From contig OZ037835.1 of the NCBI GenBank assembly GCA_964035575.1, positions 1,364,001 through 1,428,000 on the forward strand: 64,000 bases of DNA. Reading direction: 5' to 3'. Source of the DNA: Rhynchopus sp. YZ270_cl-10. Taxonomy: Eukaryota. Shown piece after piece: positions 35,691 through 60,002 of this stretch. The translations under genes were made by a program, and so were the position numbers. Each line of letters starts with the position of its first letter. Position 1 is the first letter of the stretch. Under the pieces are notes generated by a model. It did not search any database. It was not told the DNA's origin and was given only the letters and a program-made list of their open reading frames with translations.

Positions 35691-37421
35691 ATGCCGAAGC
35701 GACACGCAGACAGCACGCAGGACGAGAACCCACGAAAGAGAAGACAGCTTTCTGCAGACGAGGTCTTGGTGGAGGCTGTCAGGAACGGTGACACGACTGC
35801 CGTGCGGGCGGTCCTTGAGAAGTTCAACCCAGACAGAAAGAAAGTGGCCTTCGATGCTGCGCACGAGGCATGCAGAAGGAACCACGATGAATGCCTCGCA
35901 CTGCTTCTTCCGTATGTTGAGACAACGCAGATGGGCTTTGGGATCCTGCTGAGTGAGTGTGTCCACGCAGAGCACGTTGCGTGCACGGAGGTCCTCTTGC
36001 AGCATTGGAAGTGTGTCTGCAACAACGTGGCGTTTGTCCAGCATGTGTCCAAGCACAACGCAGGTCAGTCAGCGTATGATGACTGTCCGGCCATGTGGTC
36101 AGACCCTGCAGTGTGTCGCGTCTTGATTGATGCAGGGGCAGACTTACATACAAAAGACGAGTACGTACGTTTGCCTCTGCACTATGCTTGCATTTCAGGA
36201 GCACTTGACGTTGTGAAGATGTTGGTTGAAGCAGGTGCGGCGGGAGTGCATGACACGAATGGCCAAGGACAACGGCATTTTACTGTTGCAGCAGAGTATG
36301 GAAATACCGAGACTGTGCGCTATCTTTTGGGTTTGCCAGATGTCGATGTGAATCATGGCAACTTCAATGCGCTTCAATGTGCGGTGCTTAATATACACAC
36401 AGACGTGGTGCAGGTGCTGATTGATGCAGGTGCAGACATCGACATAAAGGACGAGGAGGGATGTTCGCTTCTGCACTATGCTTGTGAGGGAGGATCACTC
36501 GAGGGTGTGAAGATGTTGGTCAGAGCAGGTGTGGGAGTGCGTGCCACAAATGACGAAGGGGAAACGTGTCTTGTCCGTGCGGTTCAGGCGGCACGTTATG
36601 GACACATCGAGACTCTGCGCTATCTTGTGTGCTTGCCAGAGGTGGATGTGAATTACCGACAGGCTGGCAACGGCACTGCGTTGCACTGTGCAGTAGATTT
36701 AAAACCACGCCGTCAAGAGACAACCGAAGTTGTGCAGGTGCTGATTGATGCAGGTGCAGACATCGATGCAAAGAACAACTACGGACATTCGCCTCTGCAC
36801 TCTGCTTGCGCTTCAGGAGCACTTGACGTTGTGAAGATGTTGGTTGAAGCAGGTGCGGGAGTGCGTGCCACAAATGACCGAGGCGAACCGTGTCTTATCC
36901 TTGCGGCACGTTGTGGACACACGGAGACTGTGCGCTATCTTGTGGGCTTGCCAGAGGTGGATGTGAATCATGTGAATCACCGATACGTTGCAAACTACAC
37001 TGCGTTGCAGTGTGCGCTGGAGGGTGAGAAAACAGACGCGGTGCAGGTGCTGATTGATGCAGGTGCAGATGTTGTCACAAACAACAACGCTCTGCACTCT
37101 GCTTGCGTTTCAGGAACACTTGACGTTGTGAAGATGTTGGTCAGAGCAGGTGCGGGAGTGCGTGCCACAAATGAGGAAGGATGGACGTGTCTTATCTCTG
37201 CGGCACGTTATGGACACACTGACACTGTGCGCTATCTTGTGGGCTTGCAAGAGGTGGAACTGAACCACCGAGACACTGCAAAGAACTACACTGCGTTGCA
37301 CTATGCGGCGGAGCAAAAACACACTGAAGTTGCACAGGTGTTGACTGATGCACTGCTATTGGAACTTAAGGCAGCAAACTCTCGTATAGCTGCACTGGAG
37401 GTGGTGGGGTGTCCCATTTGA
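35691..37421 (+). CDS. Ankyrin-repeat protein, tandem array copy 1
   Basis: Intact ORF from MPKRHAD; four three-repeat ankyrin modules; C-terminal helical tail …SRIAALEVVGCPI. Confidence 0.92.
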   Translation: MPKRHADSTQDENPRKRRQLSADEVLVEAVRNGDTTAVRAVLEKFNPDRKKVAFDAAHEACRRNHDECLALLLPYVETTQMGFGILLSECVHAEHVACTEVLLQHWKCVCNNVAFVQHVSKHNAGQSAYDDCPAMWSDPAVCRVLIDAGADLHTKDEYVRLPLHYACISGALDVVKMLVEAGAAGVHDTNGQGQRHFTVAAEYGNTETVRYLLGLPDVDVNHGNFNALQCAVLNIHTDVVQVLIDAGADIDIKDEEGCSLLHYACEGGSLEGVKMLVRAGVGVRATNDEGETCLVRAVQAARYGHIETLRYLVCLPEVDVNYRQAGNGTALHCAVDLKPRRQETTEVVQVLIDAGADIDAKNNYGHSPLHSACASGALDVVKMLVEAGAGVRATNDRGEPCLILAARCGHTETVRYLVGLPEVDVNHVNHRYVANYTALQCALEGEKTDAVQVLIDAGADVVTNNNALHSACVSGTLDVVKMLVRAGAGVRATNEEGWTCLISAARYGHTDTVRYLVGLQEVELNHRDTAKNYTALHYAAEQKHTEVAQVLTDALLLELKAANSRIAALEVVGCPI

Positions 37422-38456
37422 AAGGTGCACAGGACGAGAGATCTTTCTGCCCCTAGTTTCGACAGCGAAACGTTTCCCCATGGATTGCACGGGAAACAAT
37501 ATGAGAAACAGGTGCAGGGTGGTTCCGTGCATATCATAGAACCTTGTGTGTCTTCCAAAAACCACAAGCGTTGTGCGTGAAGTTTTGAAGGAAGGAAAAA
37601 TAATATTTCGTCCTTTTTTGTTTTCTGCCACTGTACATCTTGATGTAATTAGCACTGTTTCCCCTTACCCCCTTTTGTACCCCACGTGTCCACCATACTT
37701 CAGGACACGTGTTTTCGGTATTTTTGGGTCTGCTTTGGGTTTGTGGTTGGGGGAAAAAAGGGACACTTATTTGGCTGGGAAAAGACATCATCCCTGACAA
37801 CACACTTGTGGAATCCCACACAGCTGACGCTGTGTGATAGCGGATGTGATCAAAGTGACTAAGCACAGAGAGGCTCAGGGTCTTCTTGTACACTTTTTCT
37901 TGTTTGCAGTACTGTATTTCTGTTTTATGACTCATTTTACACATGATCCTCAACCCCCTACTTTAGCTTTTCCGTTTGGAAGTTCGGATTGCGAATTTAT
38001 TTTGATCTTTTGTGCCCTCTGCACCCCTGTCAGACAAAAAGTGCGAATCCTGGAAAAAGTCCTGAATCAAAAGTGACTAGCAAGCATGAGAGGGTTTAGG
38101 TTTCATCACATAAACGTTCCTTAGCATTGCCACATATCTGGGTATGTGGCCACTTAGTGTGGTGGATGGAGACGCACCGTGTTGTGGGGTTCTTTTGGGC
38201 TGGGGTGCTGAGGCAGGATTGCATGAGTGGAGACGTGGGTCGGAGACTCGGGTGCAGTGGGTATGCTGGAGTGCACAGTGCTGATGTCCCGCAGTTGTCT
38301 CGTCCTTTAGAATCGAAGGTGACGAAAAAAAGCCTCAGACGTTTGCATCATTATTTGTTCTGCAATGATACAAGAACCATCGGAGGGTCGTCACCCACAA
38401 CCTCTGCACAAATAGAAACCAACACAAAAGAAACAGCAACAATACACAAACACACA

Positions 38457-40106
38457 ATGCCGAAGCGACACGCAGACAGCACGCAGGACGAGAAGCCACG
38501 AAAGAGAAGACAGCTTTCTGCAGGTGAGCTCTTGGTGGAGGCTGTCAGGAACGGTAACATTGTCAATACGACTGATGTGCGGGAGTTCCTTGGGCAGATC
38601 CCACACACGGCTGTGCACGAGGCATGCAGAAGGAACGACGATGAATGCCTCACACTGCTTCTTCCGTATGTTGAGACAACGCAGAAGGGCTTTGAGACCC
38701 TGCTGAGTGAGTGTGTCCACACAGACCACGTTGCGTGCACGGAGGTCCTCTTGCAGCATTGGAAGTCCGTCTGCAACAACGTGGCGTTTGTCCCGCACCA
38801 GTGGACAGACCCTGCAGTGTGTCGCGTCTTGATTGATGCAGGGGCAGACTTACATACAAAAGACGAGGACGGATGTTTGCCTCTGCACTCTGCTTGCGAT
38901 TCAGGAGCACTCGACGTTGTGAAGATGTTGGTTGAAGCAGGTGCAGAAGTGCGTGCCAAAAGCGACGACGGGGAGACCAGTTTTACCATGGCAGCAGCAC
39001 ACGGTCACACGGAGACTGTGTGCTATCTTTTGGGCTTGCCAGATGTCGATGTGAATCATGGCAACTTCAATGCGCTTCAATGTGCTGCGATGAATGGGCA
39101 CACAGAAGTGGTTCGGGTGCTGATTGATGCAGGTGCAGACATCGACATAAAAGACAACTACGATGGATGTTCGCCTCTGCACTATGCTTGCGAATCAGAA
39201 TCACTCGAAAGTGTGAAGATGTTGGTCAGAGCAGGTGCGGGAGTGCGTGCCACAAATCACCGGGGGGAAACGTGTCTTGTCCGTGCAGTTCACGCGGCAC
39301 ATTATGGAGACACCGAGATTCTGCGCTATCTTGTGTGCTTGCCAGAGGTCGATGTGAATTACCGACAGGGTGGCAACTGCACTGCGTTGCACTATGCGGT
39401 GGATGAAAAACCACGCACAGACGTGATACAGGTGCTGATTGATGCAGGTGCAGACATCGACGCAAAGAACAGCGAGGGACGTTCGCCTCTGCACTCTGCT
39501 TGCGCTTCAGGAGAACTTGACGTTGTGAAGATGTTAGTTGAAGCAGGTGCGGGAGTGCGTGCCACAAATGACCGAGGGGAACCGTGTCTTTTCCTTGCGG
39601 CACGTTGTGGACACACCGAGACTGTGCGCTATCTTGTGGGCTTGCCAGAGGTGGATGTGAATCGTCGATACGCTGGCAACTACACTGCGTTGCAGTGTGC
39701 GCTGGAGAATGAGGAAACAGACGTGGTGCAGGTGCTGATTGATGCAGGTGCAGACATTGTCACAAACAACAACGCTCTGCACTATGCTTGTGAAGAAGGA
39801 TCACTCGACATTGTGAAGATGTTAGTCAGAGCAGGTGCGGGAGTGCGCGCCACAAATGATGAAGGATGGACGTGTCTCATAACTGCGGCACGTTATGGAC
39901 ACACCGAGACTGTGCGCTATCTTGTGGGCTTGCCAGAGGTGGAACTGAACCACCGAGACACTGCAAAGAACTACACTGCGTTGCACTATGCGGTGGAGCA
40001 AAAACACACAGACGTTGCACAGGTGCTGACTGATGCACTGCTATTGCAGTTTGAGGCAGCAAACTCTCGTATAGCTGCACTGGAGGTGGTGGGGTGTCCC
40101 AGTTGA
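38457..40106 (+). CDS. Ankyrin-repeat protein, tandem array copy 2
   Basis: Intact ORF, same architecture. Confidence 0.92.
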   Translation: MPKRHADSTQDEKPRKRRQLSAGELLVEAVRNGNIVNTTDVREFLGQIPHTAVHEACRRNDDECLTLLLPYVETTQKGFETLLSECVHTDHVACTEVLLQHWKSVCNNVAFVPHQWTDPAVCRVLIDAGADLHTKDEDGCLPLHSACDSGALDVVKMLVEAGAEVRAKSDDGETSFTMAAAHGHTETVCYLLGLPDVDVNHGNFNALQCAAMNGHTEVVRVLIDAGADIDIKDNYDGCSPLHYACESESLESVKMLVRAGAGVRATNHRGETCLVRAVHAAHYGDTEILRYLVCLPEVDVNYRQGGNCTALHYAVDEKPRTDVIQVLIDAGADIDAKNSEGRSPLHSACASGELDVVKMLVEAGAGVRATNDRGEPCLFLAARCGHTETVRYLVGLPEVDVNRRYAGNYTALQCALENEETDVVQVLIDAGADIVTNNNALHYACEEGSLDIVKMLVRAGAGVRATNDEGWTCLITAARYGHTETVRYLVGLPEVELNHRDTAKNYTALHYAVEQKHTDVAQVLTDALLLQFEAANSRIAALEVVGCPS

Positions 40107-41141: not shown

Positions 41142-42938
41142 ATGCCGAAGCGACACGCAGACAGCACGCAGGACGAGAACCCACGAAAGAGAAGACAGCT
41201 TTCTTCAGACGAGGTCTTGGTGGAGGCTGTCAGGAACGGCGACACGACTGCCGTGCGGGCTTTCCTTGCTCAAACCTCACTCAGAAAAACAATGGCCTTC
41301 AATGCTGCGTACGTGGCATGCAGAAGGAACGACGATGAAAGCCTCACACTGCTTCTTCCGTATGTTGAGACAAAGCAGACGTTCTTTGGGATCCTGCTGA
41401 GTGAGTGTGTCCACGCAGACCACGTTGCGTGCACGGAGGTCCTCTTGCAGCATTGGAAGTCCGTCTGCAACAACGTGACATTCGTCCCCCAGGAGTGGGA
41501 ATTCCCTGCAGTGTGTCGCGTCTTGATTGATGCAGGGGCAGACATACATACAGGAGACGAGGACGGATATTTGCCTCTCCACACTGCTTGCGTTTTAGGA
41601 GCACTCGAACAACGTGGCGTTTGTCCCGCACCAGTGGTCAGACCCTGCAGTGTGTCGCGTCTTGATTGATGCAGGGGCAGACTTACAGATAACAGACGAG
41701 GAAGGATGTTCGCCTCTGCACTCTGCTTGTGAATCAGGAGCACTTGACGTTGTGAAGATGTTGGTTGAAGCAGGTGCGGAAGTGCGTGCCACAAATGACG
41801 AAGGGGACACCAGTTTTAGCAGGGCAGCAGCACATGGACACACGGACACTGTGCGCTATCTTTTGGGCTTGCCAGATGTCGATGTGAATCATGGCAACTT
41901 CAATGCGCTTCAATGTGCTGCGATAAATGAGTACCCAGACGTGGTGCAGGTGCTGATTGATGCAGGTGCAGACATTGACATAAAGGACGACTTCGATGGA
42001 TGTTCGCTTCTGCACTATACTTGCGCTTCAGGATCACTCGAGGGTGTGAAGATGTTGGTCAGAGCAGGTGCGGAAGTGCGTGCCACAAATGACGAAGGGG
42101 AAATGTGTCTTGTCCTTGCAGCACGTAATGGACACATAGAGACTGTGCGCTATCTTGTGTGCTTGCCAGAGGTGGATGTGAATTACCGACAGACTGACAA
42201 CTACACTGCGTTGCACTGTGCGGTGGATGAAAAACCACGCACAGACGTGGTGCAGGTGCTGATTGATGCAGGTGCAGACATCGACGCAAAGAACAACGAG
42301 GGATGTTCGCCTCTGCACACTGTTTGCGCTTCAGGAGCACTTGACGTTGTGAAGATGTTGGTTGAAGCGGGAGCGGGAGTGCGTGCCACAAATGGCCGAG
42401 GGGAAACGTGTCTTGTCCTTGCGGCACGTTGTGGACACACCGAGACTGTGCGCTATCTTGTGGACTTGCCAGAGGTGGATGTGAATCATGTGAATCGTCG
42501 ATACGCTGGCAACTACACTGCGTTGCAGTGTGCGCTGGAGGGTGAGAAAACAGACGCGGTGCAGGTGCTGATTGATGCAGGTGCAGATGTTGTCACAAAC
42601 AACAACGCTCTGCACTCTGCTTGCGTTTCAGGAACACTTGACATTGTGAAGATGTTGGTCAGAGCAGGTGCGGGAGTGCGTGCCACAAATGAGGAAGGAT
42701 GGACGTGTCTTATCACTGTGGCATTTTTTGGACACATCGAGCTTGTGCGCTATCTTGTGGGCTTGCCAGAGGTGGAACTGAATCACCGAGACACTGCAAA
42801 GAACTACACTGCGTTGCACTATGCGGTGGAGCAAAAACACACTGAAGTTGCACAGGTGCTGACTGATGCACTGCTATTCAGTTTGAGGCAGCAAACTCTC
42901 GTATAGCTGCACTGGAGGTGGTGGGGTGTCCCATTTGA
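41142..42938 (+). pseudogene. Ankyrin-repeat array copy 3, chimeric and frameshifted
   Basis: At ~41608 the sequence jumps from …GGAGCACTCGA back to ACAACGTGGCGTTTGTC (a different paralogue version of the preceding segment), shifting frame. A 1-nt deletion near 42879 (ctattcagttt vs ctattgcagttt) alters the C-terminus. Confidence 0.85.
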
Positions 42939-44020
42939 AAGGTGCACAGGACGAGAGGCTTTCATATTATATTGTTTTCTGCCCCTAGTTTCGAGAGCGA
43001 AACGTTTTCCCATGGATTGCACGGGAAACAATATGACAAACAGGTGCAGGGTGGTTCCGTGCATATCATAGAACCCGGCACCTTGTGTGTCTTCTAAAAA
43101 CCAAAAGCGTTGTGTGTGAAGTTTTGAAGCAAGGAGAAATAATATGGGGTGTCCCCAACCCCGGTGAAATCCGGGCGAAATCGGGTGAAATCGGGCGAAA
43201 TCGGGCAAAAACAGGGTTTTTTGGCTTCTGTGAGGGTTTGGCCCAGTAAAACACCCAGAAACCGCGCTTTTCGAGATTTCCGGGCTGGGTCTGCAGGGTT
43301 TTCGCTATGGGGGTACCGGGGTACCGCCGGTACCCCCAAAGAAAAATTTGGGGAAAAAACCCGATTTTTGGGGGTACGGCGGTACCCCCAACGGTACTTG
43401 AGGGTTTAGGGTTAGTGGGAAATGTTTTTTTTCTTCTTTTTTTTTTCCTCTCGGCAAGACGTGGCGCAAATCTTTCAATTGCGGCCATAATCGGGGGAAA
43501 ATATGCTTCTGTGGGGTCCTTGCCGTTCCGAGAGAAGGAAAAAGTAGCGTACCGTGCGCCTGCGGCGCAAAACTTATGAGCGGAATCCCACAGCCCTCTA
43601 CCATAGTTTGGCTGTAAAAATGTTTGATTTTAAGTCACAATTTTTGAAATGTTGCGTACCGTGGCTTTCGCCACAAAGTTTAGATATTATGACTGCCGTT
43701 TCTTCTTGTACTGAGGGAAGGCAGGCGTAGAAAAAACATGAGAAAAAGGGTTGGTTTGGTTCTTGATGTACATTACCATCCCACGTCATCACGTATTTAC
43801 ATGAAATGAACGGACCTTTTCGCGCGGAGCGCGAAAATTTTTTTTTGACCCTTTTTTTTTGCCGGTGCCCCCAAAAAAAAAAAAAATAGCGATTTCTGGC
43901 GAAAACACTGCAGAGTCTGGGTACAGGGGTGGAGGTGCGTCTACTGACCCGGTTTCAAAACCGGGTCAAAAAAAAAAAAATGGGATTTTGGCGAAAAACC
44001 CGGTTTGGAAAAAAATAAAA

Positions 44021-45462
44021 GGGTAAATTGCGATAACACGTATACTTTTTTTTTCGATTTGCGATAACACGTACACAAAAAGTATACGTGTTATCGCGAA
44101 AAAGTGTACGTGTTTTCGCAAACAAAAACGTACGTGTTTTCCCAGGTACCCAGGTACCCAGGTACCCAGGTACCCAGGTACCCAGGTACCCAGGTACCCA
44201 GGTACCCAGGTACCCAGGTACCCAGGTACCCAGGTACCCAGGTACCCAGGTACCCAGGTACCCAGGTACCCAGGTACCCAGGTACCCAGGTACCCAGGTA
44301 CCCAGGTACCCAGGTACCCAGGTACCCAGGTACCCAGGTACCCAGGTACCCAGGTACCCAGGTACCCAGGTACCCAGGTACCCAGGTACCCAGGTACCCA
44401 GGTACCCAGGTACCCAGGTACCCAGGTACCCAGGTACCCAGGTACCCAGGTACCCAGGTACCTGGTTTGTCAAGGAAACCAAACTTTTTGTCACGGAAAA
44501 AGTCGTGACAGGGCACTGGGTACTGGGTACACTGTGTACAAGGATAAAAGTCGTGAAAGAGCAACCACAGCTCCACATGACAAACACAAAAGTGTCCAGT
44601 CACGTGGGGCATTCATGCACTGAGGAGATAATGATCCAACAATTTACAAGAAAGATTACTTAACCTACTGCTGGAAGTTGCCAGGTCGTAGTAACACACA
44701 AAGTGTGCCTCCGTTCGGGAATACCGGATATTCTAGAGACCAAAAAGGCCTCTTCCGCTAGTCAAGGTATAACCGAATGAACGGCCCAAGACCCCCGTGG
44801 AGAAGTTAAATGTTGTAATGCTATCAAGTACAAACTGCGACCACTGTCTTACCCTCCTCAATGCATGGTGGAAGATGTCTTTGACAACAAATATCCTGTA
44901 CCCAGGTACCCATATTCCCAGACCCACGCAGTACCACGTCGCAGTACTACGCAAAATTTACCACCAGACCCTGTCTTCGTGCACCTTAAGTACGTAAGTC
45001 TGGTTCCCAGACCCACGCAGTGGCACATGACCGCAAGTGTGAGTGACCCACAGAGGGATACGCAAAATTTACCACCAGACCCTGTCTTCTGAATGTCACA
45101 CGTACATTTTTTTGAACACTTTTCGCGATAACACGTACATATTTCGCTAAAAAACGGGGTGCTCGCAACCGCGTTCTAGACCCCTACAGATGCTCAAAAG
45201 TGCCAAATTTTGCTTTGAATGGCCTCAAATCGTCGAAATTAGCCATTTTTGGGGCCCAAAAAAAAAAATTCGAGGGTCTAGGTATGGAGAGCGAGCACCT
45301 TAGAAGAAGGAAACACGTACATTTTTGTTCGCGATAACACGTATACTTTTTTGACCACTTTTCGCGATAACACGTACACTTTTTCGCGATAACACGTATA
45401 CTTTTTGTGTACGTGTTATCGCAAATGGAAACAAAAAGTATACGTGTTATCGCAATTTGCCC
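44021..45462. mobile_element. Non-autonomous TIR element B (GCGATAACACGTA subrepeats), apparent 9-bp TSD AAAATAAAA (Mutator-like)
   Basis: gggtaaattgcgataacacgtatacttttt / aaaaagtatacgtgttatcgcaatttgccc; carries the CCAGGTAC array and part of the element A cargo. Confidence 0.8.
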
Positions 45463-45705
45463 AAAATAAAAAAAATGGGATTTGCAATTTTGGGAGAAAA
45501 TCGATTTTTTTTGGTACCTCGCACGAGCCTCTGAGATCATGAACAAAGTGACCCCGTCACAGCCAGAACGCGACTCAATTAGTCAAACGCCGAAGCAAAA
45601 GGAAGCATGCAGCATGGCGAAATAATAAAAGTAGCGTACCGTGCGCCTGCGGCGCAAGCTTGCAACCCACCCCCAAAATGTACAATTTTAAGCGCATTTT
45701 TTTTT

Positions 45706-47856: not shown

Positions 47857-48232
47857 TTTTTTTTTTTGAAATGTTGCGTACCGTGGCTTCGCCAGGAACC
47901 TTTGAGGCCATGACCGCCGAAAAATCCACTTTTGCCGAGTGCGTGAAGTTCGGTGTGCTGAACAAAGGGGGAACATGGACCCTACTCCCCTTCATCAAGG
48001 CACAAACGCTGTTGCGCAAGTTCCCCGCCAAAGAAGTGTAACAACCAGGTCGCACGTGCCAGTGTCATTTTCGCGCGCAGCGCGAAAAAATTTTTTTGAC
48101 CCCAAAAAGCTCAGACCGGGTCAAACCGGGTCTTTTTTGAAAATCCCAAATCTATCTCCATCTCTGTCTGGGTAAAATAAAAAAAAAAATCGGTCACTTT
48201 CGTTGAGCAGAACAGAACCCCTTTAGGTGACT

Positions 48233-48391
48233 CACAGTACACGTACACAGTACACAGTACACAGTACACAGTACACAGTACACAGTACACAGTACACAGT
48301 ACACAGTACACAGTACACAGTACACAGTACACAGTACACAGTACACAGTACACAGTACACAGTACACAGTACACAGTACACAGTACACAGT
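48233..48391. repeat. (CACAGTA)n 7-bp satellite
   Basis: Directly visible. Confidence 0.95.
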
Positions 48392-49613
48392 TTGGGTGGG
48401 TATTGGCACAAACCATTGTAGGTACACGCGCCAATAACGTTCAACCCGCTCCTCCAGGCTGTTTCCTAATTCTGGAAATTTTCCGGAAAATTCCATCTGG
48501 AAGCAAATATTTTCCCTGAAAAAAAGTGGGCTCCAAAACATGCAGCGATTGGCATTTCCGGAATCCGTCCGTGCTGTGGTGGGGTCACTTGCCCGAAATG
48601 GCCAAGTTCTTGGTTTTGGTCAAACCCCGCCCAAGCTCCCCACTCCCAACCCAAAAAAAGGAATTTTTGAAGACCGGGCGAAATCGGGTGGAATTGGGTT
48701 CAGGTGGGCCCAGGGGGGCTCTAGGGGGGCGATTGTGGGCTGGTCGCGGGACACCACATAATATTTCATTCTTTTTTGTTTTCTGCCACTGTACATCTTG
48801 ATGTAATTAACACTGTTTCCCCTTCCCCCCTTTTGCACCCCACGTGTCCACCATACTTCAAGACACGTGTTTTCGGGATTTTTTAGGTCTGCTTTGGGTT
48901 TGTGGTTTGGGAAAAAAGGGAGACTTCTTTGGCTGGGAAAAGACATCATCCCTGACAACACACTTGTGGAATCCCACGCAGCTGATGCTGTGTGATAGCG
49001 GATGTGATCAAGGTGACTAAGCACAGAGAGGCTCAGGGTCTTGTTGTGCACTTTATTGTTTGCAATACTGTATTTCTGTTTTATGACTCATTATACACAT
49101 GATCCTCAACCCCCTACTTTAGCTTTTCCGTTTGGAAGTTCGGATTGCGAATTTATTTTGAGCTTTTGTGTCCTCTGCACCCCTGCCAGACAAAAAGTGC
49201 GAATCCTGGAAAAAGTCCTGAATCAAAAGTGACTAGCAAGCATGAGAGGGTTTAGGTTTCATCACATAAACGTTCCTTAGCATTGCCGCATATCTGGGTA
49301 TGTGGCCACTTAGTGTGGTGGATGGAGACGCACCGTGTTGTGGGGTTCTTTTGGGCTGGGGTGCTGAGGCAGGATTGCATGAGTGGAGACGTGGGTCGGA
49401 GACTCGGGTGCAGTGGGTATGCTGCAGTGCACAGTGCTGATGTCCTGCAGTTGTCTCGTCCTTTAGAATCGAAGGTGACGAAAATAAAGCCTCAGACGTT
49501 TGCATCATTATTTGTTGTGCAATGATGCAAGAACCATCGGAGGGTCGTCACCCACAACCTCTGCACAAAAAGAAACCAACACAAAAGACACAGCAACAAC
49601 ACACAAACACACA

Positions 49614-51284
49614 ATGCCGAAGCGACACGCAGACAGCACGCAGGACGAGAACCCACGAAAGAGAAGACAGCTTTCTGCAGGTGAGGTCTTGGTGGAGGCT
49701 GTCAGGAACGGTAACATTGTCAATACGACTGATGTGCGGGAGTTCCTTGAGCAGATCCCACACACGGCTGTGCACGAGGCATGCAGAAGGAACGACGATG
49801 AATGCCTCACACTGCTTCTTCCGTATGTTGACACAACGCAGAAGGGCTTTGGGATGCTGCTGAGTGAGTGTGTCCACGCAGACCACGTTGCGTGCACGGA
49901 GGTCCTCTTGCAGCATTGGAAGTCTGTCTGCAACAACGTGGCGTTTGCCCCTTTCGAGTGGACAGACCCTGCAGTGTGTCGCGTCTTGATTGATGCAGGG
50001 GCAGACTTACATACAAAAGACGAGGAAGGATGTTCGCCTCTGCACTCTGCTTGTGAATCAGGAGCACTTGACGTTGTGAAGATGTTGGTTGAAGCAGGTG
50101 CGGAAGTGCGTGCCACAAATGACGAAGGGGAGACCAGTTTTACGAGGGCAGCAGCATACGGTCACAGAGAGACTGTGCGCTATCTTGTGGGCTTGCCAGA
50201 TGTCGATGTGAATCATGGCAACTTCAATGCGCTTCAATGTGCGGCGATGAATGAGTTCCCGGAGGTGGTGCAGGTGCTGATTGATGCAGGTGCAGACATC
50301 GACATAACAGCCAACTTCGATGGATGTTCACCTCTGCACTATGCTTGTGAATCAGGATCACTCGAGGGTGTGAAGATGTTGGTCAGAGCAGGTGTGGGAG
50401 TGCGTGCCACAAATAACCGAGGGCAAACGTGTCTTGTCCGTGCAGTTCACGCGGCACGTTATGGACACATAGAGGCTTTGCGCTATCTTGTGTGCTTGCC
50501 AGAGGTGGATGTGAATTACCGACAGGCTGGCAACATCACTGCGTTGCACTATGCGGTGGATGAAAAACCACGCACAGACGTGGTACAGGTGCTGATTGAT
50601 GCAGGTGCAGACATCGACGCAAAGAACAACGAGGGACGTTCGCCTCTGCACTCTGCTTGCGCTTCAGGAGAACTTGACGTTGTGAAGATGTTGGTTGAAG
50701 CAGGTGCGGGAGTGCGTGACACAAATGGCCGAGGGGAAACGTGTGTTGTTCTTGCGGCACGTAATGGACACACCGAGACTGTGCGCTATCTTTTGGGCTT
50801 GCCAGAAGTAGATGTGAATCATGTGCATCGTCGATGCGCTGGCAACTACACTGCGTTGCAGTGTGCGCTGGAGAATAATAAACCTGACGTGGTGCGGGTG
50901 CTGATTGATGCAGGTGCAGACATCGACGCAAAGAACAACTACGGATGTTCGCCTGTGCACTCTGCTTGCGTTTCAGGAACACTTGACATTGTGAAGATGT
51001 TGGTCAGAGCAGGTGCGGGAGTGCGCGCCACAGATAATGACGGATGGACGTGTCTTATCTCTGCGGCATTTTTTGGACACATCGATATTGTGCGCTATCT
51101 TGTGGGCTTGCCAGAGGTGGAACTGAATCACCGAGACACTGCAAAGAACTACACTGCGTTGCACTATGCGGTGGAGGAAAATCACACAGAAGTTACACAG
51201 GTGCTCACTGATGCACTGCTATTGCAGTTTGAGGCAGCAAAGTCTCGTATAGCTGCACTGGAGGTGGTGGGGTGTCCCATTTGA
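49614..51284 (+). CDS. Ankyrin-repeat protein, tandem array copy 4
   Basis: Intact ORF, same architecture. Confidence 0.92.
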   Translation: MPKRHADSTQDENPRKRRQLSAGEVLVEAVRNGNIVNTTDVREFLEQIPHTAVHEACRRNDDECLTLLLPYVDTTQKGFGMLLSECVHADHVACTEVLLQHWKSVCNNVAFAPFEWTDPAVCRVLIDAGADLHTKDEEGCSPLHSACESGALDVVKMLVEAGAEVRATNDEGETSFTRAAAYGHRETVRYLVGLPDVDVNHGNFNALQCAAMNEFPEVVQVLIDAGADIDITANFDGCSPLHYACESGSLEGVKMLVRAGVGVRATNNRGQTCLVRAVHAARYGHIEALRYLVCLPEVDVNYRQAGNITALHYAVDEKPRTDVVQVLIDAGADIDAKNNEGRSPLHSACASGELDVVKMLVEAGAGVRDTNGRGETCVVLAARNGHTETVRYLLGLPEVDVNHVHRRCAGNYTALQCALENNKPDVVRVLIDAGADIDAKNNYGCSPVHSACVSGTLDIVKMLVRAGAGVRATDNDGWTCLISAAFFGHIDIVRYLVGLPEVELNHRDTAKNYTALHYAVEENHTEVTQVLTDALLLQFEAAKSRIAALEVVGCPI

Positions 51285-52150
51285 AAGGTGCACAGGACGA
51301 GAGGCTTTCATCTTGCAATGTTTTCTGCCGCAACACATCTGGAAATGAATGCCTTCTTCGATGTCCTGTTTCCCCTTCCCCCCTTTTGTACCCCACCTGT
51401 CCACCATACTTCAGGACACGTGTTTTCGGTGTTTTTTGGGTCTGGTTTGGGTTTGTGGTTTGGGAAAAAACGGAGACTTATTTGGCTGGGAAAAGACATC
51501 ATCCCTGACAACACACTTGTGGAATCCCACGCAGCTGATGCTGTGCGATAACGGATGTGATCAAAGTGACTAAGCACAGACAGGCTCAGGGTCTTCTTGT
51601 GCACTTTTTCTTGTTTGCAGTACTGTATTTCTGTTTTATGACTCATTTTACACAGGATGGTACTCTGCAAAAAGTACATGAATTCCTGATGAAAAATGAA
51701 AATGTAACTGTGTCCCGTCTTTCCGGATATCGCTATCAAGACATGTAATGTTATATGGAACTATAGTATTCCATGTACCTCCCATTGCTTCGCCATCGTG
51801 CAAACACCCGAATCCGTGCATGAGCATGCTCGAGGCTTTAAAAAAAAAGAAACTCTTGTTTATTTCCCCCACACCTCCTCACCTTCTCCACATCACCATC
51901 ACCCTCCGTTACCTATGATACAGAGCGACACAAATATGGATTTGACTATCAGGGGGTTGAACGGAGTGAAGGATACGGTGGAGCTGGGTGAGGATGACAC
52001 ACTTGCGGTGATGCGGCGGAAGGTGGCGACTGCAGTGGGGTTGCCTGAAGACGGCTTTTGCATGAGTTTCGGATGTGAACCGATTGGAGCAGGAGCGGAC
52101 ATGACGCAGCTGAGCGCTGGTGATACAATCATCCTCACGAAGACTCAGAA

Positions 52151-52224
52151 GGGGGCAATTAACGTCTGACCAACCGCCAAGTGGGGCCCCTGGACGCCGT
52201 GTTCGCATGGTACTGAGTCAGCGT
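52151..52224 (+). ncRNA. HDV-like self-cleaving ribozyme (predicted)
   Basis: P1 GGGGGC(52151-56)/GCCCCT(52186-91) with leading G-U; P2 ACG[T]CTGA(52162-69)/TCAGCGT(52218-24); P3 CCA/TGG; L3 ACCGCCAAG with CC pairing GG(52192-93) as P1.1; P4 GCCGTG-TTCG-CATGGT; J4/2 A-C(52213)-TGAG. Folded by eye. Confidence 0.75.
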
Positions 52225-53785
52225 GGGCGGCCGCCTCTCCAATGATGGATTCGCTCGGGACCGGAGGAGGAACAAGCCGATGTGGGAACCCTGGTTATTA
52301 ATACAACATCACAGTCAATTTCGGGCAGATCACCAGCTTATGTAGGCTACGCAAACCCCTTCGGAGGGGTTTCAAGGATCTGTTACCTGTGCGGTGACTG
52401 GGAGTGTGTTGATGCCGATGAGGGGATCCCAGGTACAAGAAGGAAGCGTTGCCGGTGTCTCTACTGGTGACGGAATATTGTTGCTGTTCCTGTGTTGTCG
52501 TTTGACCGCATGGGAACGTTGTGTTGCTTTGTTGGTGCGTACACTGCATGTGAAACAACTGTGGATCAGCAGGTACGTGCTCTTGTGTATTCAGTGTGGT
52601 GTGTTGTAGTTTTGTTCAGTTCAGTTCAGTTTTCATCTTTTTGCCGTAGTAGAATTCTTGTGTTATGTGTTTAACCTCAGGCTGTGTACACCGTAGTGAA
52701 ACATCTGTGGATCTGCAGGTGCGTGCTCTGTCGTTAATTCAGTGTGGCATGTTGTAGTTTTTGGTCTGTTTTTACGTTTTTGATACGTTAGTAGAAGAAG
52801 GGATCTGCGAACATTCATTCGCAGGTGGGTACAAGTTGTCGCCGTGGCATTCAGCTACGGTGCAGAAGAAGTAGTAGGGCAGACCAACGTCTGTGCTAGA
52901 AGGAAGAGGTTAAACTTTCAGGGTGTATGCACTCTGCAGGTACATGCTCTGTTGTTTTCCAATGTGTTTGTTTTTGTTCTATTTTCACGTGCTTTGGTAC
53001 GTTGGAGATGAAGGAGTTGTCGCCGTGGCGTCCAGCTACGGTGCAGAAGAGGCAGTAGGGCAGACCAACTACCAAATGTAGGGTCTGTGCTACGCGGAAA
53101 GGCTGGTACTTGAGTTTGTTCACTGTTTGTTGTAACTCCTTCCCTACCGGTACTCCCTTTCTTGTAAGGAAGAAGTTACAACTTTCTCTGTACAAATCAG
53201 GGGAATTTTGTGTGGCCGTCTGCCATATTGTGTGGACATGTTAGCTGACGGTGCTGCTGTTTCTTTTACAACAACACTGCTCTTGCTGTTGATTTTTCTT
53301 TTTCATTTTTACTTTTTATTGTTTCGAAAAACGGAGGTTAATGTTTCCGGTTCGGGCCTGGACTCCGACCCCTACTCTTGCTGACGCGAACGAACGGTCG
53401 TGAACCGTCCCCATTCTCTTACGGTGTGGGCACCGCGGTAACGGTGGCTAGGAAGAAGGGAATCACCCAGAACCACTAATCGCAGCCTGACAGGCACCGA
53501 ACCTCGGGTGAGAATCCCCTCCTGTCAGCCCTGTTCGAAGTACCTATTTTGTTTGACCTTCTTGTCTTTTTGACTTTTTGACTTTTTCTTTTATGCTATC
53601 GAACAGTGCACCCCCAGTAGTGTTGGCATGCATACCTGGGCTGGTCGGCTTGCCGATCTGTTCCAGGGACTGGGGTAAAGTGCCACTAAACGCAGCAGGT
53701 ACCTGTGTTTTTTGGGGGTCTTTTGGTTGGGAAGGCCACAGAAAGAAGGCCCGGCCTGCCAGAGACCGTTAAAACGGACTACCAC
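52151..53785 (+). mobile_element. Non-autonomous non-LTR retroelement-like insertion (~1.63 kb, no long ORF)
   Basis: Direct repeat CCTCACGAAGACTCAGAA(G) at 52133-52151 and 53786-53804; no TIRs; 5' HDV-like fold; 3' hairpin CCGTT-AA-AACGG followed by ACTACCAC. Confidence 0.85.
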
Positions 53786-55140
53786 CCTCACGAAGACTCA
53801 GAAGTACCAAGCCATTGCAGAGCTTCATGCGTTGGGTGTGACCGACATCACAGCCGAGAGGTTGGAGAGTGTGAAGGATCCTGAGGTGGCGTGTTTGCTT
53901 CTGCAGGCGGAGGTTGCGACTGTCATTCCGCATGACTTCTTGTCAGACACTTCGTTGACGAGACTTGATCTCAGTGCTGAGTCCATTGTGACTCGCATTG
54001 GAAACAGCTTCCTATGCAACTGCACCTCGTTGACCAGTATCAATCTCTCTGGGTTGAGCAATGTGACGCAGGTTGGTGAGGGCTTCCTTGCGTTATGCAG
54101 TCGCTTAACGACCCTGGATTTATCGCCACTCAGCAACGTTACGTGGATTCATCACAGCTTTCTTTCCGGCTGCACGAGGTTAACCACCATCGATTTATCA
54201 GCACTCAGCAATGTGACGCACGTTGGCTCATCTTTCCTTTACAACTGCAGCAGCTTAACATCCCTGGATTTATCCGCACTCAGCAATGTGACGTCGATTG
54301 GTTTGAGTAGCATTACTTCTACTACCCGATTTGCTTCGAACTGCACTTCGTTGACGAGCATTTACCTTTCCGGCTGCAGCAGTGTTGTGTCCAACGAAGT
54401 GAGGAAGCGTGAGAAACTGAGTAAGCTTCTGGTTGAAGCACAATGACGGAGTGGAAGGACGTGACATGTCTCGCACAGATGATGTGGAACCCACCTATCC
54501 TACCAGAAGTCCACAAGACTTCAAAAGCGTCCATTTTTTGTACCCAACCACAGAGTCTCCCCGAGACACAGTGAACAGACCACACACCGCAGGACATACA
54601 TCCCCTCGAGAATGCCCTCAAGACACCCCATCCTCAACCCCCTACTTTAGATTTTCCGTTTGGAAGTTCGGATTGCGAATTTATTTTGATCTTTTGCGTC
54701 CTCTGCACCCCTGTCAGACAAAAAGTGCGAATCCTGGAAAAAGTCCTGAATCAAAAGTGACTATCAAGCATGAGAGGGTTTAGGTTTCATCACATAAACG
54801 TTCCTTAGCATTGCCGCATATCTGGGTATGTGGCCACTTAGTGTGGTGGATGGAGACACACCGTGTTGTGGGGTTCTTTTGGGCTGGGGTGCTGAGGCAG
54901 GATTGCATGAGTGGAGACGTGGGTCGGAGACTCGGGTGCAGTGGGTATGCTGCAGTGCACAGTGCTGATGTCCCGCAGTTGTCTCGTCCTTTAGAATCGA
55001 AGGTGGCGAAATAAAGCCTCGGCCGTTTGCATCATTATTTGTTCTGCAATGATGCAAGAACCATCGGAGGGTCGTCACCCACAACCTCTGCACAAAAAGA
55101 AACCAACACAAAAGACACAGCAACAATACACAAACACACA

Positions 55141-56790
55141 ATGCCGAAGCGACACGCAGACAGCACGCAGGACGAGAACCCACGAAAGAGAAGACAGCTT
55201 TCTGCAGGCAAGACCTTGGTGGAGGCTATCAGGAACGGTGACATTGTCAATACGACTGATGTGCGGGAGTTCCTTGGGCAGATCCCACACACGGCTGTGC
55301 ACGAGGCATGCAGAAGGAACGACGATGAATGCCTCACACTGCTTCTTCCGTATGTTGACACAACGCAGAAGGGCTTTGGGATGCTGCTGAGTGAGTGTGT
55401 CCACGCAGACCACGTTGCGTGCACGGAGGTCCTCTTGCAGCATTGGAAGTCCGTCTGCAACAACGTGGCGTTTGTCCCGCACCAGTGGACAGACCCTGCA
55501 GTGTGTCGCGTCTTGATTGATGCAGGGGCAGACTTACATACGAAAGGCGAGGACGGATGTTTGCCTCTCCACACTGCTTGCATTTTAGGAGCACTTGACG
55601 TTGTGAAGATGTTGGTTGAAGCAGGTGCGAGTGTGCGTGCCAGAACTGACGTAGGGGAGACCAGTTTTACCATGGCAGCAGGATATGGTCACACGGAGAC
55701 TGTGCGCTATCTTTTGGGCTTGCCTGATGTCGATGTGAATCATGGCAACTTCAATGCGCTTCAATGTGCTGCGAGGAATGGGCACACAGACGTGGTGCAG
55801 GTGCTGATTGATGCAGGTGCAGACATCGACATAACAGCCAACTTCGATGGATGTTCGCTTCTGCACGATGCTTGTAAATCAGGATCACTCGAAGGTGTGA
55901 AGATGTTGGTCAGAGCAGGTGTGGGAGTGCGTGTCACAAATGACAATGGGGAGACGTGTCTTGTCCGTGCAGTTCAGGCGGCACGTTATGGTCATATCGA
56001 GGCTTTGCGCTATCTTGTGTGCTTGCCAGAGGTGGATGTGAATTACCGACAGGGTGGCGACTACACTGCCTTGCACTATGTGATGGATGAAAAACCACGC
56101 ACAGACGTGGTGCAGGTGCTGATTGATGCCGGTGCAGACATCGGCGCAAAGAACAACTACGGACATTCGCCTTTGCACGCTGCTGGCGCTTCAGGAGAAC
56201 TTGACGTTGTGAAGATGTTGGTTGAAGCAGGTGCGGGAGTGCGTGCCACAAATGGCCGAGGGGAACCGTGTCTTTTCCCTGCAGCACGTAATGGATACAC
56301 CGAGACTGTGCGCTATCTTGTGGGCTTGCCAGAGGTGGATGTGAATCGTCGATACGCTGGCAACCGTACTGCGTTGCAGTGTGCACTGGAGAATAATAAA
56401 CCAGACGTGGTGCAGGTGCTGATTGATGCAGGTGCAGATATTGTCACAAACAACAACGCTCTGCACTCTGCTTGCGTTTTAGGATCACTCGACATTGTGA
56501 AGATGTTGGTCAGAGCAGGTGCGGGAGTGTGTGCCACAAATGATGAAGGATGGACGTGTCTTATCTCTGCGGCACGTTATGGACACACTGACACTGTGCG
56601 CTATCTTGTGGGCTTGCCAGAGGTGGAACTGAACCACCGAGACACTGCAAAGAACTACACTGCGTTGCACTATGCGGTGGAGGAAAATCACAAAGAAGTT
56701 GCACAGGTGCTCACTGATGCACTGCTATTGCAGTTTGAGGCAGCAAACTCTCGTATAGCTGCACTGGAGGTGGTGGGGTGTCCCATTTGA
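55141..56790 (+). CDS. Ankyrin-repeat protein, tandem array copy 5
   Basis: Intact ORF, same architecture. Confidence 0.92.
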   Translation: MPKRHADSTQDENPRKRRQLSAGKTLVEAIRNGDIVNTTDVREFLGQIPHTAVHEACRRNDDECLTLLLPYVDTTQKGFGMLLSECVHADHVACTEVLLQHWKSVCNNVAFVPHQWTDPAVCRVLIDAGADLHTKGEDGCLPLHTACILGALDVVKMLVEAGASVRARTDVGETSFTMAAGYGHTETVRYLLGLPDVDVNHGNFNALQCAARNGHTDVVQVLIDAGADIDITANFDGCSLLHDACKSGSLEGVKMLVRAGVGVRVTNDNGETCLVRAVQAARYGHIEALRYLVCLPEVDVNYRQGGDYTALHYVMDEKPRTDVVQVLIDAGADIGAKNNYGHSPLHAAGASGELDVVKMLVEAGAGVRATNGRGEPCLFPAARNGYTETVRYLVGLPEVDVNRRYAGNRTALQCALENNKPDVVQVLIDAGADIVTNNNALHSACVLGSLDIVKMLVRAGAGVCATNDEGWTCLISAARYGHTDTVRYLVGLPEVELNHRDTAKNYTALHYAVEENHKEVAQVLTDALLLQFEAANSRIAALEVVGCPI

Positions 56791-57708
56791 AAGGTGCACA
56801 GGACGAGAGGCTTTTATCAGGGGATGCGTCCAAGTAAATCACGTCAGCAGAAAAGTTCGAGAATGTAGGTTTTATTATTTTCTGCCACTGTACATCTTGA
56901 TGTAATTAACACTGTTTCCCCTTCCCCCCTTTTGCACCCCACCTGTCCACCATACTTCAGGACACGTGTTTTCGGTGTTTTTTGGGTCTGGTTTGGATGG
57001 TTTGGAGAAAAAAGGGAGACTTATTTGGCTGGGAAAAGACATCATCCCTGACAACACACTTGTGGAATCCCACACAGCTGACGCTGTGTGATAGCGGATG
57101 CGATCAAAGTGACTAAGCACAGACAGGCTCAGGGTCTTCTTGTGCACTTTATTGTTTGCAGTACTGTATTTCTGTTTTATGACTCATTATACACATGATC
57201 CTCAACCCCCTACTTTAGCTTTTCCGTTTGGAAGTTCGGATTGCGAATTTATTTTGAGCTTTTGTGTTCTCTGCATCCCTGTCAGACAAAAAGTGCGAAT
57301 CCTGGAAAAAGTCCTGAATCAAAAGTGACTAGCAAGCATGAGAGGGTTTAGGTTTCATCACATAAACGTTCCTTAGCATTGCCGCATATCTGGGTATGTG
57401 GCCACTTAGTGTGGTGGATGGAGACACACCGTGTTGTGGGGTTCTTTTGGGCTGGGGTGCTGAGGCAGGATTGCATGAGTGGAGACGTGGGTCGGAGACT
57501 CGGGTGCAGTGGGTATGCTGCAGTGCACAGTGCTGATGTCCTGCAGTTGTCTCGTCCTTTAGAATCGAAGGTGACGAAATAAAGCCTCAGACATTTGCAT
57601 CATTATTTGTTGTGCAATGATACAAGAACCATCGGAGGGTCGTCACCCACAACCTCTGCACAAAAAGAAACCAACACAAAAGACACAGCAACAACACACA
57701 AACACACA

Positions 57709-59376
57709 ATGCCGAAGCGACACGCAGACAGCACGCAGGACGAGAACCCACGAAAGAGAAGACAACTTTCTGCAGGTGAGGTCTTGGTGGAGGCTGTCAG
57801 GAACGGCGAGACGACTGCCGTGCGGGCGGTCCTTGAGAAGTTCAACCCAGACACAGTGGCCTTTGATGCGGCGCACGAGGCATGCAGACGGAACGACGAT
57901 GAATGCCTCACACTGCTTCTTCCGTATGTTGAGACAACGCAGAAGGGCTTTGGGATGCTGCTGAGTGAGTGTGTCCACGCAGACCACGTTGCGTGCACGG
58001 AGGTCCTCTTGCAGCATTGGAAGTCCGTCTGCAACAGCGTGACATTTGTCCCGCAGCAGTGGACAGACCCTGCAGTGTGTCGCGTCTTGATTGATGCAGG
58101 GGCAGACTTACATACAAAAGACAAGTACGGATGTTCAATTCTGCACTCTGCTTGTGAATTAGGAGCACTTGACGTTGTGAAGATGTTGGTTGAAGCAGGT
58201 GCGGCGGGAGTGCATGCCACGAATGACGAAGGACAACGGTATTTTACTGTTGCAGCAGAGTGTGGACACACGGAGACTGTGTGCTATCTTGTGGGCTTGC
58301 CAGATGTCGATGTGAATCATGGCAACTTCAATGCGCTTCAATGTGCTGCGATGAATGAGTACCCAGACGTGGTGCAGGTGCTGATTGATGCAGGTGCAGA
58401 CATCGACATAACAGCCAACTTCGATGGATGTTCGCCTCTGCACTATGCTTGTGAATCAGGATCACTCGAAAGTGTGAAGATGTTGGTCAGAGCAGGTGCG
58501 GAAGTGCGTGCCACAAATCACCGGGGGGAAACGTGTCTTGTCCGTGCGATTCACGCGGCACGTTATGGACACATCGAGACTCTGCGCTATCTTGTGTGCT
58601 TGCCAGAGGTGGATGTGAATTACCGACACGCTGGCAACTACACTGCGTTGCACTGTGCGGTTGATGAAAAACCACGCACAGACGTGCTGCAGGTGCTGAT
58701 TGATGCAGGTGCAGACATCGACGCAAAGAACAACGAGGGACGTTCGCCTCTGCACTCTGCTTGCGCTTCAGGAGCACTTGACGTTGTGAAGATGTTGGTT
58801 GAAGCAGGTGCGGGAGTGCGTGCCACAAATGACCGAGGGGAAACGTGTCTTATCCTTGCGGCACGTAATGGACACACCGAGACTGTACGCTATCTTGTGG
58901 GCTTGCCAGAGGTGGATGTGAATCATGTGAATCGTCGATACGCTGGCAACTACACTGCGTTGCAGTGTGCGCTGGAGAATGATAAAACAGACGTGGTGCA
59001 GGTGCTGATTGATGCAGGTGCAGATGTTGTCACAAACAACAACGCTCTGCACTCTGCTTGCGTTTTCGGATCACTTGACGTTGTGAAGATGTTGGTCAGA
59101 GCAGGTGCGGGAGTGCGTGCCACAAATGATGAAGGATGGACGTGTCTTATCTCTGCGGCACGTTATGGACACACTGACACTGTGCGCTATCTTGTGGGCT
59201 TGCCAGAGGTAGAACTGAATCACCGAGACACTGCAAAGAACTACACTGCGTTGCACTATGCGGCGGAGCAAAAACACACTGAAGTTGCACAGGTGCTCAC
59301 TGATGCACTGCTATTGGAACTTGAGGCAGCACACTCTCGTATAGCTGCACTGGAGGTGGTGGGGTGTCCCATTTGA
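57709..59376 (+). CDS. Ankyrin-repeat protein, tandem array copy 6
   Basis: Intact ORF, same architecture. Confidence 0.92.
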   Translation: MPKRHADSTQDENPRKRRQLSAGEVLVEAVRNGETTAVRAVLEKFNPDTVAFDAAHEACRRNDDECLTLLLPYVETTQKGFGMLLSECVHADHVACTEVLLQHWKSVCNSVTFVPQQWTDPAVCRVLIDAGADLHTKDKYGCSILHSACELGALDVVKMLVEAGAAGVHATNDEGQRYFTVAAECGHTETVCYLVGLPDVDVNHGNFNALQCAAMNEYPDVVQVLIDAGADIDITANFDGCSPLHYACESGSLESVKMLVRAGAEVRATNHRGETCLVRAIHAARYGHIETLRYLVCLPEVDVNYRHAGNYTALHCAVDEKPRTDVLQVLIDAGADIDAKNNEGRSPLHSACASGALDVVKMLVEAGAGVRATNDRGETCLILAARNGHTETVRYLVGLPEVDVNHVNRRYAGNYTALQCALENDKTDVVQVLIDAGADVVTNNNALHSACVFGSLDVVKMLVRAGAGVRATNDEGWTCLISAARYGHTDTVRYLVGLPEVELNHRDTAKNYTALHYAAEQKHTEVAQVLTDALLLELEAAHSRIAALEVVGCPI

Positions 59377-60002
59377 AAGGTGCACAGGACGAGAGGCTGT
59401 CGACCATAATTCAGGACACGTGTTTTCACGTATTTTTTGGGTCTAGTTTGGGTTGGCGGTTTAGAAAAAAAAGGGACACTATTTGGGTGGGGAAGAGACC
59501 TCACCTGAATGATCATTTCGTTCATCTGACTGATGAGTGGAAGCAGGTGGAAGGAATATCAGATGTAAACCACGAAATGGATTCAACTTTTTTATTTTCA
59601 GTGTCACATTTGATTTTCCATGTTGCTTCGCACGTCGTGTATCACTCACATCGCACCCATACACACACATTCGTGGACAAAGGTGTACGTTTCAATCCAC
59701 ACACGTAGCCCATTTTTGAGCTTCATGTCTCCCAAACATACATCCCACGGGTCAAAGCTTTCTCTACGAAGTGCCCACCAGATGCTTCCGGAGTTGAGTG
59801 CGTCCCGACGTCTTCCCGTGAGTTGCTGCACCAGCTCACGTATGCAGTCAGCGAGGTTCTCGTTCTTAGGTTCCTGATATTGACCCGATTTCCATTTTTT
59901 TTTTTTTTTGGGCAATTTCCGAACGTTGCTACGGAAGCCCCGAACTGATATGAATCACTCCCACAGCAGCCTAACACCCACTACACAACACAACACAACA
60001 CA

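What the first reader, a model, noticed from the sequence alone, without database searches (positions are those of the whole stretch)
35691..59376. Tandem ankyrin array diversified at binding-face positions: a natural DARPin-like repertoire
Seen: between paralogues the scaffold (ALDVVKMLVEAGA, ETVRYLxGLPxVDVN, VVQVLIDAGAD) is almost invariant, while the beta-turn and first helix vary. First repeat: KDEYVRLPLHYACISG / KDEDGCLPLHSACDSG / KDEEGCSPLHSACESG / KGEDGCLPLHTACILG / KDKYGCSILHSACELG. Third repeat: CAVLNIH / CAAMNGH / CAAINEY / CAAMNEF / CAARNGH. Non-coding spacers stay nearly identical. Known: these are the concave-surface positions randomised in DARPin libraries (DxxGxTPLHLAAxxG). Inference: diversifying selection on ligand specificity in a probably nuclear (PRKRR) family, consistent with an intracellular recognition/defence repertoire in a protist.
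Basis: partly seen in the sequence, partly recalled or inferred. Interest (0 to 1): 0.78.

Follow-up and report, generated by a model that had tools for sequence, protein, structure and literature searches.

The report
Protist ankyrin repertoire under diversifying selection
A marine-type protist (likely a diplonemid) carries a tandem cluster of ankyrin-repeat genes, part of a family of hundreds, whose predicted binding surface changes two to three times faster than silent DNA while the outer scaffold is conserved, so they likely form a natural library of binding proteins that would act in the nucleus against fast-changing foreign proteins.

Summary
Six tandem, intronless ankyrin genes lie at 35691-59376 (five intact, one broken chimera), and a seventh at 11185. 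IFT88 places the host among diplonemids. A search found 280 relatives; the 120 listed are ENA-only or the window's own and cluster on few contigs. At the library positions 2, 3, 5, 10, 13, 14, fixed beforehand, dN is 0.257 against dS of about 0.10. ML omega is 2.4-3.3 (p at most 0.002) against 0.3-0.5 on the outer helix. M8 vs M8a is significant, and top sites are face-enriched. New here: sister repeats exchange sequence, lifting dS in the repeats to 3-4 times that of spacers. Neutral shuffling of already-diverged repeats alone gives omega of about 1.7, so selection in the family's history is solid but selection among these six copies is only borderline. The N-terminus fits a bipartite NLS pattern (90 of 114) before a conserved degenerate-ankyrin module. 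There is no NOD, F-box or enzyme domain. The same evolutionary regime is published for fungal NLR ankyrins; this is a large stand-alone variant. Ligand, expression and defence role are untested.

The parts
35691..37421 (+). Copy 1, intact, 576 aa; keeps the long linker typical of the family
38457..40106 (+). Copy 2, intact, 549 aa; repeat 10 carries a tract resembling repeat 4
41142..42938 (+). Copy 3, broken: 139-bp duplication (41469-41607 / 41608-41746) whose halves are 82% alike but each 87-94% alike to its best other copies; 1-nt deletion near 42878. Likely a crossover chimera; an assembly error is not excluded
43146..48757 (.). 5.6-kb insertion in the spacer, flanked by a 7-bp duplication (ATAATAT), 10-bp ends matching 9/10 as inverted repeat, internal inverted repeats with (GGTACCCA)n; likely a non-autonomous DNA element
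49614..51284 (+). Copy 4, intact, 556 aa; the repeat 9/10 loop missing in the other copies is present and matches the repeat 6/7 junction
51915..54446 (+). Weak ubiquitin-like (E 0.028) plus LRR_5 gene between copies 4 and 5, split by a 1.63-kb insertion (52152-53785) with a 19-bp target duplication
55141..56790 (+). Copy 5, intact, 549 aa
57709..59376 (+). Copy 6, intact, 555 aa; model pLDDT 91.4, ankyrin solenoid
57715..57762 (+). Predicted bipartite NLS (KR, 10 residues, RKRR), shown on copy 6
   Evidence: consensus recalled
57868..58032 (+). Core of the conserved N-terminal degenerate-ankyrin module (residues 54-108 of copy 6), mean entropy 0.27 bits in 91 sequences
11185..12585 (+). Seventh, diverged family member, 466 aa: first 116 codons dS 0.034 to copy 1, but face dN 1.12 vs face dS 0.145 to the array's repeats

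Best explanation
This is a tandem block of a large ankyrin-only gene family in a likely diplonemid protist, whose concave-face codons change faster than silent sites and are shuffled between sister repeats, so the proteins likely form a diversified repertoire of binders that would enter the nucleus and likely block fast-evolving foreign proteins by binding them. Shown: the architecture, omega above 1 on the face, purifying selection on the outer helix, exchange between sister repeats, and birth-and-death (a broken chimera, inserted elements, variable repeat number). Inferred mechanism: point changes on the face are favoured when they give a new specificity. Conversion and unequal crossover among the A-B-C triplets and among paralogues spread and recombine these faces while the shared scaffold keeps the fold. 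The bipartite NLS would import the protein. With no enzyme, NOD or F-box domain, it would act by stoichiometric binding to proteins of viruses, mobile elements or intracellular bacteria, possibly handing them to a common host partner through the conserved N-terminal module. Odds: selection on the face at some time about 0.85; conversion as the spreading route about 0.85; nuclear about 0.65; foreign targets about 0.5.
For: Face dN 0.257, face dS 0.095, pooled dS 0.105; omega 2.45 (block bootstrap 1.86-3.23); without copy 3, 2.21. ML with the face's own synonymous rate: omega 2.7-3.3, p 2e-5 to 2e-3 in 4 of 4 set-ups, including removal of doubtful columns. M8 vs M8a LRT 49.9 (one tree) and 28.3 (a tree per triplet); 8 of 11 and 6 of 9 top sites lie on the face (Fisher p 1e-4 and 2e-3). 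Outer helix omega 0.3-0.5. Copy 0 vs array: face dN 1.12, face dS 0.145 (6 repeats). Sister repeats: face dN 0.79, face dS 0.43, all dS 0.23. Null with a neutral face plus conversion: 99th percentile 1.56-1.61, maximum 1.95 in 600 runs, vs 2.45 observed. Conversion: 133 of 244 minor alleles occur in sister repeats (106 expected, z 4.3); 4-fold sites are polymorphic 3.7 times more often where sisters differ (p 3e-4); dS 0.10 in repeats vs 0.02-0.035 in N-terminus and spacers. Family: 244 of 277, 305 of 342 and 229 of 253 repeats have distinct face strings. NLS pattern in 90 of 114, shuffled 3.8%. Precedent: PMC4986451 section 17.
Against: Starting from the real, already face-diverged sister repeats, neutral conversion alone gives pooled omega median 1.7 and 99th percentile 2.2-2.4, so current selection among these six copies is borderline. 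With the face's own dS, the observed 2.7 only reaches about the 95th percentile of the nulls (2.3-2.7). 40% of differing face codon pairs differ at 2-3 bases (150 of 378), which can inflate codon models. The conserved module shows no purifying signal in the window's DNA (dN 0.036-0.052, dS 0.023-0.028; similar vs copy 0), and the array has drifted from family consensus at several conserved sites. 24 of 114 relatives lack the NLS pattern. One of six copies is broken. Core omega is high (0.6-0.7). No ligand, expression or localisation data. Only 7 genes had DNA.
Confidence: 0.55

Rival explanations
1. Relaxed constraint plus gene conversion. The face tolerates change in any ankyrin, the family expands by neutral tandem duplication, and conversion moves old variants around; there is no positive selection.
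For: Conversion is real; dS is raised only in the repeats; there is a broken copy and a high core omega; multi-base codon differences are common.
Against: With a neutral face the simulated pooled omega stays at or below 1.95 in 600 runs. Face dN exceeds face dS within the array, between sister repeats and against copy 0.
Confidence: 0.12
2. Selection acted earlier, when the repeats diverged; today's differences among the six copies are mostly neutral reshuffling of that old diversity in a possibly decaying array.
For: The real-sister simulation gives omega about 1.7 without selection; drift in the conserved module and loss of the linker in copies 2-6; broken copy 3.
Against: Observed 2.45 lies above the 99th percentiles (2.22, 2.38), though below the maxima (2.71, 2.82); 28 of 69 face replacement alleles have no match in sister repeats; five ORFs of about 1.65 kb stay open.
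Confidence: 0.2
3. The repertoire recognises self proteins: allorecognition or mating, internal genetic conflict, or paralogue-specific regulation of host nuclear proteins (IkB-like), not pathogens.
For: Sequence cannot tell the target. Fungal NLR repeats with the same regime act in non-self recognition between strains (PMC4986451 passages). An NLS and no effector domain fit a regulator.
Against: Hundreds of distinct faces are more than conserved host partners would need (inference). Diplonemids host intracellular bacteria (abstract of 10.64898/2026.01.29.702485).
Confidence: 0.25
4. Targeted mutagenesis (DGR- or deaminase-like) makes the face variable.
For: Variation is concentrated in a few codons.
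Against: Face polymorphism is equal for all four bases (A 0.34, C 0.38, G 0.38, T 0.38), face dS is not raised, and no reverse transcriptase or deaminase appeared among the 16 ORFs scanned.
Confidence: 0.02

Closest known systems
Fungal NLR ankyrin domains with high internal conservation (Podospora Pa_3_8560; PMC4986451, section 17 read)
   Same: Positive selection on the inner helix and beta-hairpin of the concave face; repeat number variation; exchange between repeats.
   Different: No NACHT/NB-ARC and no effector domain here; triplet period; sister repeats about 72-78% alike in DNA, below that paper's 85% amino-acid criterion as far as comparable; hundreds of paralogues instead of alleles of single loci; NLS pattern.
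DARPin / artificial ankyrin libraries (PMC3308923 passage: positions 2, 3, 5, 10, 13, 14; PMC9611651, PMC8229355 passages)
   Same: The same positions vary on a conserved scaffold; a monoextended DARPin is Foldseek rank 4.
   Different: Natural; three repeat types; 12 repeats; cysteines on the face; position 33 of the classic library (recalled) is not variable; binding not shown.
Bodo saltans virus ankyrin accordion (PMC5871332 passages)
   Same: Many tandem ankyrin genes (148 copies, 4-17 repeats) with recent duplication, in a euglenozoan host-virus system.
   Different: That set is viral. Here the genes sit among intron-containing host genes; the module's fold matches to viral ankyrins are weak (none at E 0.001), and no locus was found in viral contigs.
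Plant NLR/LRR clusters, MHC, nematode F-box and KRAB-zinc-finger families (recalled, except search listings)
   Same: Tandem birth-and-death, conversion, and selection on the ligand face with a constant part.
   Different: Different folds; no known adaptor domain here.

Membership tests
Ankyrin repeat proteins | Tandem 33-residue helix-turn-helix repeats | tested here: met
   Pfam Ank_2 E 6e-85; model pLDDT 91.4; Foldseek ankyrins E 1e-19
DARPin-like repertoire | Variation at positions 2, 3, 5, 10, 13, 14 on a conserved scaffold | tested here: met
   positions from PMC3308923
DARPin-like repertoire | Different members bind different targets | not testable with these tools
   no ligand known
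Fungal-type NLR (NOD-ANK) | NACHT or NB-ARC domain | tested here: not met
   none in 3 window proteins, nor in any of the 25 + 10 database proteins scanned
Fungal-type NLR (NOD-ANK) | N-terminal effector domain | tested here: not met
   the N-terminal module is ankyrin-like by Pfam and fold
Fungal-type NLR (NOD-ANK) | Positive selection on the concave face | tested here: met
Fungal-type NLR (NOD-ANK) | Exchange between repeats, repeat number variation | tested here: met
   3-18 motif-counted repeats in 119 of 120 relatives, none counted in one
ANK-F-box/PRANC or ANK-SOCS ligase adaptors | F-box, PRANC or SOCS box | tested here: not met
   no such Pfam hit; a divergent adaptor is not excluded
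Diversity-generating retroelement | Adenine-specific variation, template repeat, reverse transcriptase | tested here: not met
   flat base spectrum; no RT among 16 ORFs scanned
Nuclear protein | Bipartite NLS that functions | tested here: inconclusive
   pattern in 90 of 114 vs 3.8% shuffled; localisation not tested

The most novel reading that the evidence does not exclude
Diplonemids have evolved a germline library of hundreds of stand-alone nuclear ankyrin binders, a constant N-terminal module plus a variable groove diversified by selection and repeat-to-repeat conversion, that works as an intracellular immune repertoire against viruses, mobile elements or endosymbiont effectors without any NLR-type switch.
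Probability: 0.3. Interest if true: 0.85.

Novelty: new variant of a known kind. Interest (0 to 1): 0.58.

Why it matters
How single-celled eukaryotes recognise viruses and intracellular bacteria is largely open. This family gives a testable candidate in an abundant marine lineage, with a measured selection signal on the surface engineers randomise and a visible route for making new specificities. The regime itself is known from fungal NLR repeats, so the advance is the scale, the stand-alone architecture with an NLS pattern, and the lineage. The natural triplet scaffold and its tolerated substitutions could also inform binder design.

Tried and rejected
No whole genome is held, and no DNA of relatives was found in metagenome contigs (49 pattern matches, 0 confirmed) or viral contigs (19, 0), so codon tests rest on the window's 7 genes. 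No read data were obtained, so expression and the reality of copy 3's lesions are open. The protein atlas and the wide structural search gave no answer; Foldseek found only weak ankyrin matches for the N-terminal module (none at E 0.001 in PDB or viral libraries). The first face set (2, 3, 5, 13, 14, 33; recalled) gave lower but significant values (omega 2.1-2.5, p 6e-4 to 3e-3 with own dS); the published set with position 10 was adopted, when per-position values had already been seen, so both are reported. Rfam on 34000-60000: 35 matches, all below gathering scores, all on simple repeats. The idea that the N-terminal module is under purifying selection was not supported by window DNA. Targeted mutagenesis was rejected. 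No complex prediction was run because there is no candidate partner. Earlier findings: none returned. Literature: ten searches showed no paper describing a diplonemid ankyrin repertoire; 'ankyrin' does not occur in the main text of PMC10161547, whose supplements were not read; subscription papers are not covered.
Full report
Observation. Self-comparison and translation show six head-to-tail copies of an intronless ankyrin gene between 35691 and 59376 and a seventh at 11185. Five of the six are open (549-576 aa). Copy 3 has a 139-bp duplication whose halves are 82% alike while each is 87-94% alike to its best other copies, plus a 1-nt deletion near the end; this looks like a crossover between two paralogues, though an assembly error could not be checked. 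Each protein has a basic N-terminus, a three-hairpin degenerate ankyrin module, a linker and 12 repeats as four A-B-C triplets. The model is a confident ankyrin solenoid (pLDDT 91.4; Foldseek).

Host. The window's IFT88 segment falls in a 10-row clade with a sequence labelled Hpha (which I recall as Hemistasia, a diplonemid) at 100/100 support, apart from kinetoplastid and Euglena-labelled rows (41 rows, 40 taken from 120 listed hits). The host is therefore likely a diplonemid.

Family. The first 135 residues find 280 proteins at E 0.001 among 573 candidates of 305-972 aa; 120 were listed: 117 ENA-only and 3 the window's own, on 22 contig lengths, with 79 of 120 on four contigs (counted by eye). 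That they come from one assembly is inferred. An exhaustive search with the module gave 30 clusters at 1e-10; of 10 looked up, 9 are unnamed ENA-only and 1 is a small-contig metagenome ankyrin cluster. No NOD, F-box or SOCS domain appeared in the 25 + 10 database proteins scanned; the module-bearing ones showed ankyrin families and weak incidental hits only, or nothing in one case. In the 120 proteins, 277 of 298 A, 342 of 359 B and 253 of 297 C repeats were in register; face entropy is 3.3-3.5 bits vs 0.7-1.9 at outer positions 17, 18, 29, and 244, 305 and 229 face strings are distinct. The module core has 0.27 bits in 91 sequences, biased low because hits were ranked on this region. A bipartite NLS pattern (consensus recalled) occurs in 90 of 114 N-termini vs 3.8% after shuffling.

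Selection. Repeat positions were assigned by helix anchors. With the recalled classic set (2, 3, 5, 13, 14, 33), dN was 0.225 and dS 0.115; ML omega 2.1-2.5, p 6e-4 to 3e-3 with the face's own synonymous rate. With the published set 2, 3, 5, 10, 13, 14 (PMC3308923 passage): face dN 0.257, dS 0.095; outer helix 0.047 and 0.137; core 0.068 and 0.098; pooled omega 2.45 (1.86-3.23 by repeat-block bootstrap), 2.21 without copy 3. ML omega is 2.4-3.3 with p 2e-3 or lower in all four set-ups, one pair dropping 43 of 383 doubtful columns. Site models agree: M8 vs M8a LRT 49.9 on one tree and 28.3 with a tree per triplet; 8 of 11 and 6 of 9 sites above 0.9 lie on the face, which is 72 of 383 codons. 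Copy 0 is the clearest contrast: dS 0.034 to copy 1 over the first 116 codons and 0-3 differences in 66 upstream bases, but face dN 1.12 vs face dS 0.145 over its 6 comparable repeats.

Source of the variants. Silent divergence is 0.10 in the repeats but 0.02-0.035 in the spacers, first 22 codons and module core. Minor alleles occur in sister repeats more than expected (133 of 244 vs 106), and 4-fold sites are polymorphic 3.7 times more often where sisters differ; whole tracts are visible in copies 1, 2, 3 and 4. The four triplet trees differ. Conversion between sister repeats and paralogues is thus the likely spreading route. The base spectrum is flat, against targeted mutagenesis.

Limits. 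Simulations with a neutral face and conversion never reached the pooled value (maximum 1.95 in 600 runs). But starting from the real sister repeats, whose faces already differ (dN 0.79, face dS 0.43), neutral conversion gives median 1.7 and 99th percentile 2.2-2.4; and the own-dS statistic only reaches about the 95th percentile of all nulls. Selection on the face in the family's history is well supported; selection among these six copies today is borderline. Multi-base codon differences (150 of 378 face pairs) can inflate the models. The module shows no purifying signal in window DNA and has drifted in this array.

Mechanism. Most likely the proteins are imported into the nucleus and bind, each through its own groove, proteins that change fast; lacking an enzyme or switch, they would block by binding or pass the target to a shared partner through the module. 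Foreign targets are inferred from the evolutionary signature and from diplonemids hosting intracellular bacteria (abstract); self targets remain possible.

Comparison. The same regime, selection on the concave ankyrin face with exchange between repeats, is described for Podospora NLRs (PMC4986451, passages and section 17). This family works like those domains but is not an NLR, since the NOD and effector tests failed. It resembles DARPin libraries in which positions vary (passages of PMC3308923, PMC9611651, PMC8229355) and the Bodo saltans virus ankyrin expansion in layout (PMC5871332 passages). Ten searches found no report of such a family in diplonemids; supplements were not read.

Verdict. 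A real feature and a new variant of a known kind. Interest 0.58; 0.85 if an immune role is shown.

Noticed in passing
window 43146-48757: 5.6-kb insertion with 7-bp target duplication and short terminal inverted repeat; holds a foldback segment with (GGTACCCA)n arrays, part of which recurs at 31466-33032 (97% over 1.45 kb). Coding capacity not examined.
   Followed up: partly
window 52152-53785: 1.63-kb insertion with a 19-bp target duplication splitting a ubiquitin-like plus LRR gene; the GC-rich 5' end may be a retroposon signature, but Rfam gave no match.
   Followed up: partly
window 51915-54446 and 18926-20035: Two genes join a weak ubiquitin-like N-terminus (E 0.01-0.03) to a repeat domain (LRR_5; WD40): perhaps further adaptor-plus-repeat families.
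   Followed up: partly
   Followed up: partly
P0001-P0015: Subfamily with two copies of the N-terminal module separated by a conserved ankyrin block.
   Followed up: no
window 9073-9245, 27154-27208: Isolated pieces of the array's spacer DNA, possibly remnants of lost copies.
   Followed up: no
window 560-3287, 27252-29054: Membrane proteins with C-terminal regions that look like divergent nucleotide cyclases (by eye; no Pfam hit at 0.001).
   Followed up: no
window 13034-16100 and 59949-60872: Intron-containing IFT88 gene, used for lineage; a BILBO1_N-like gene right after the array.
   Followed up: partly
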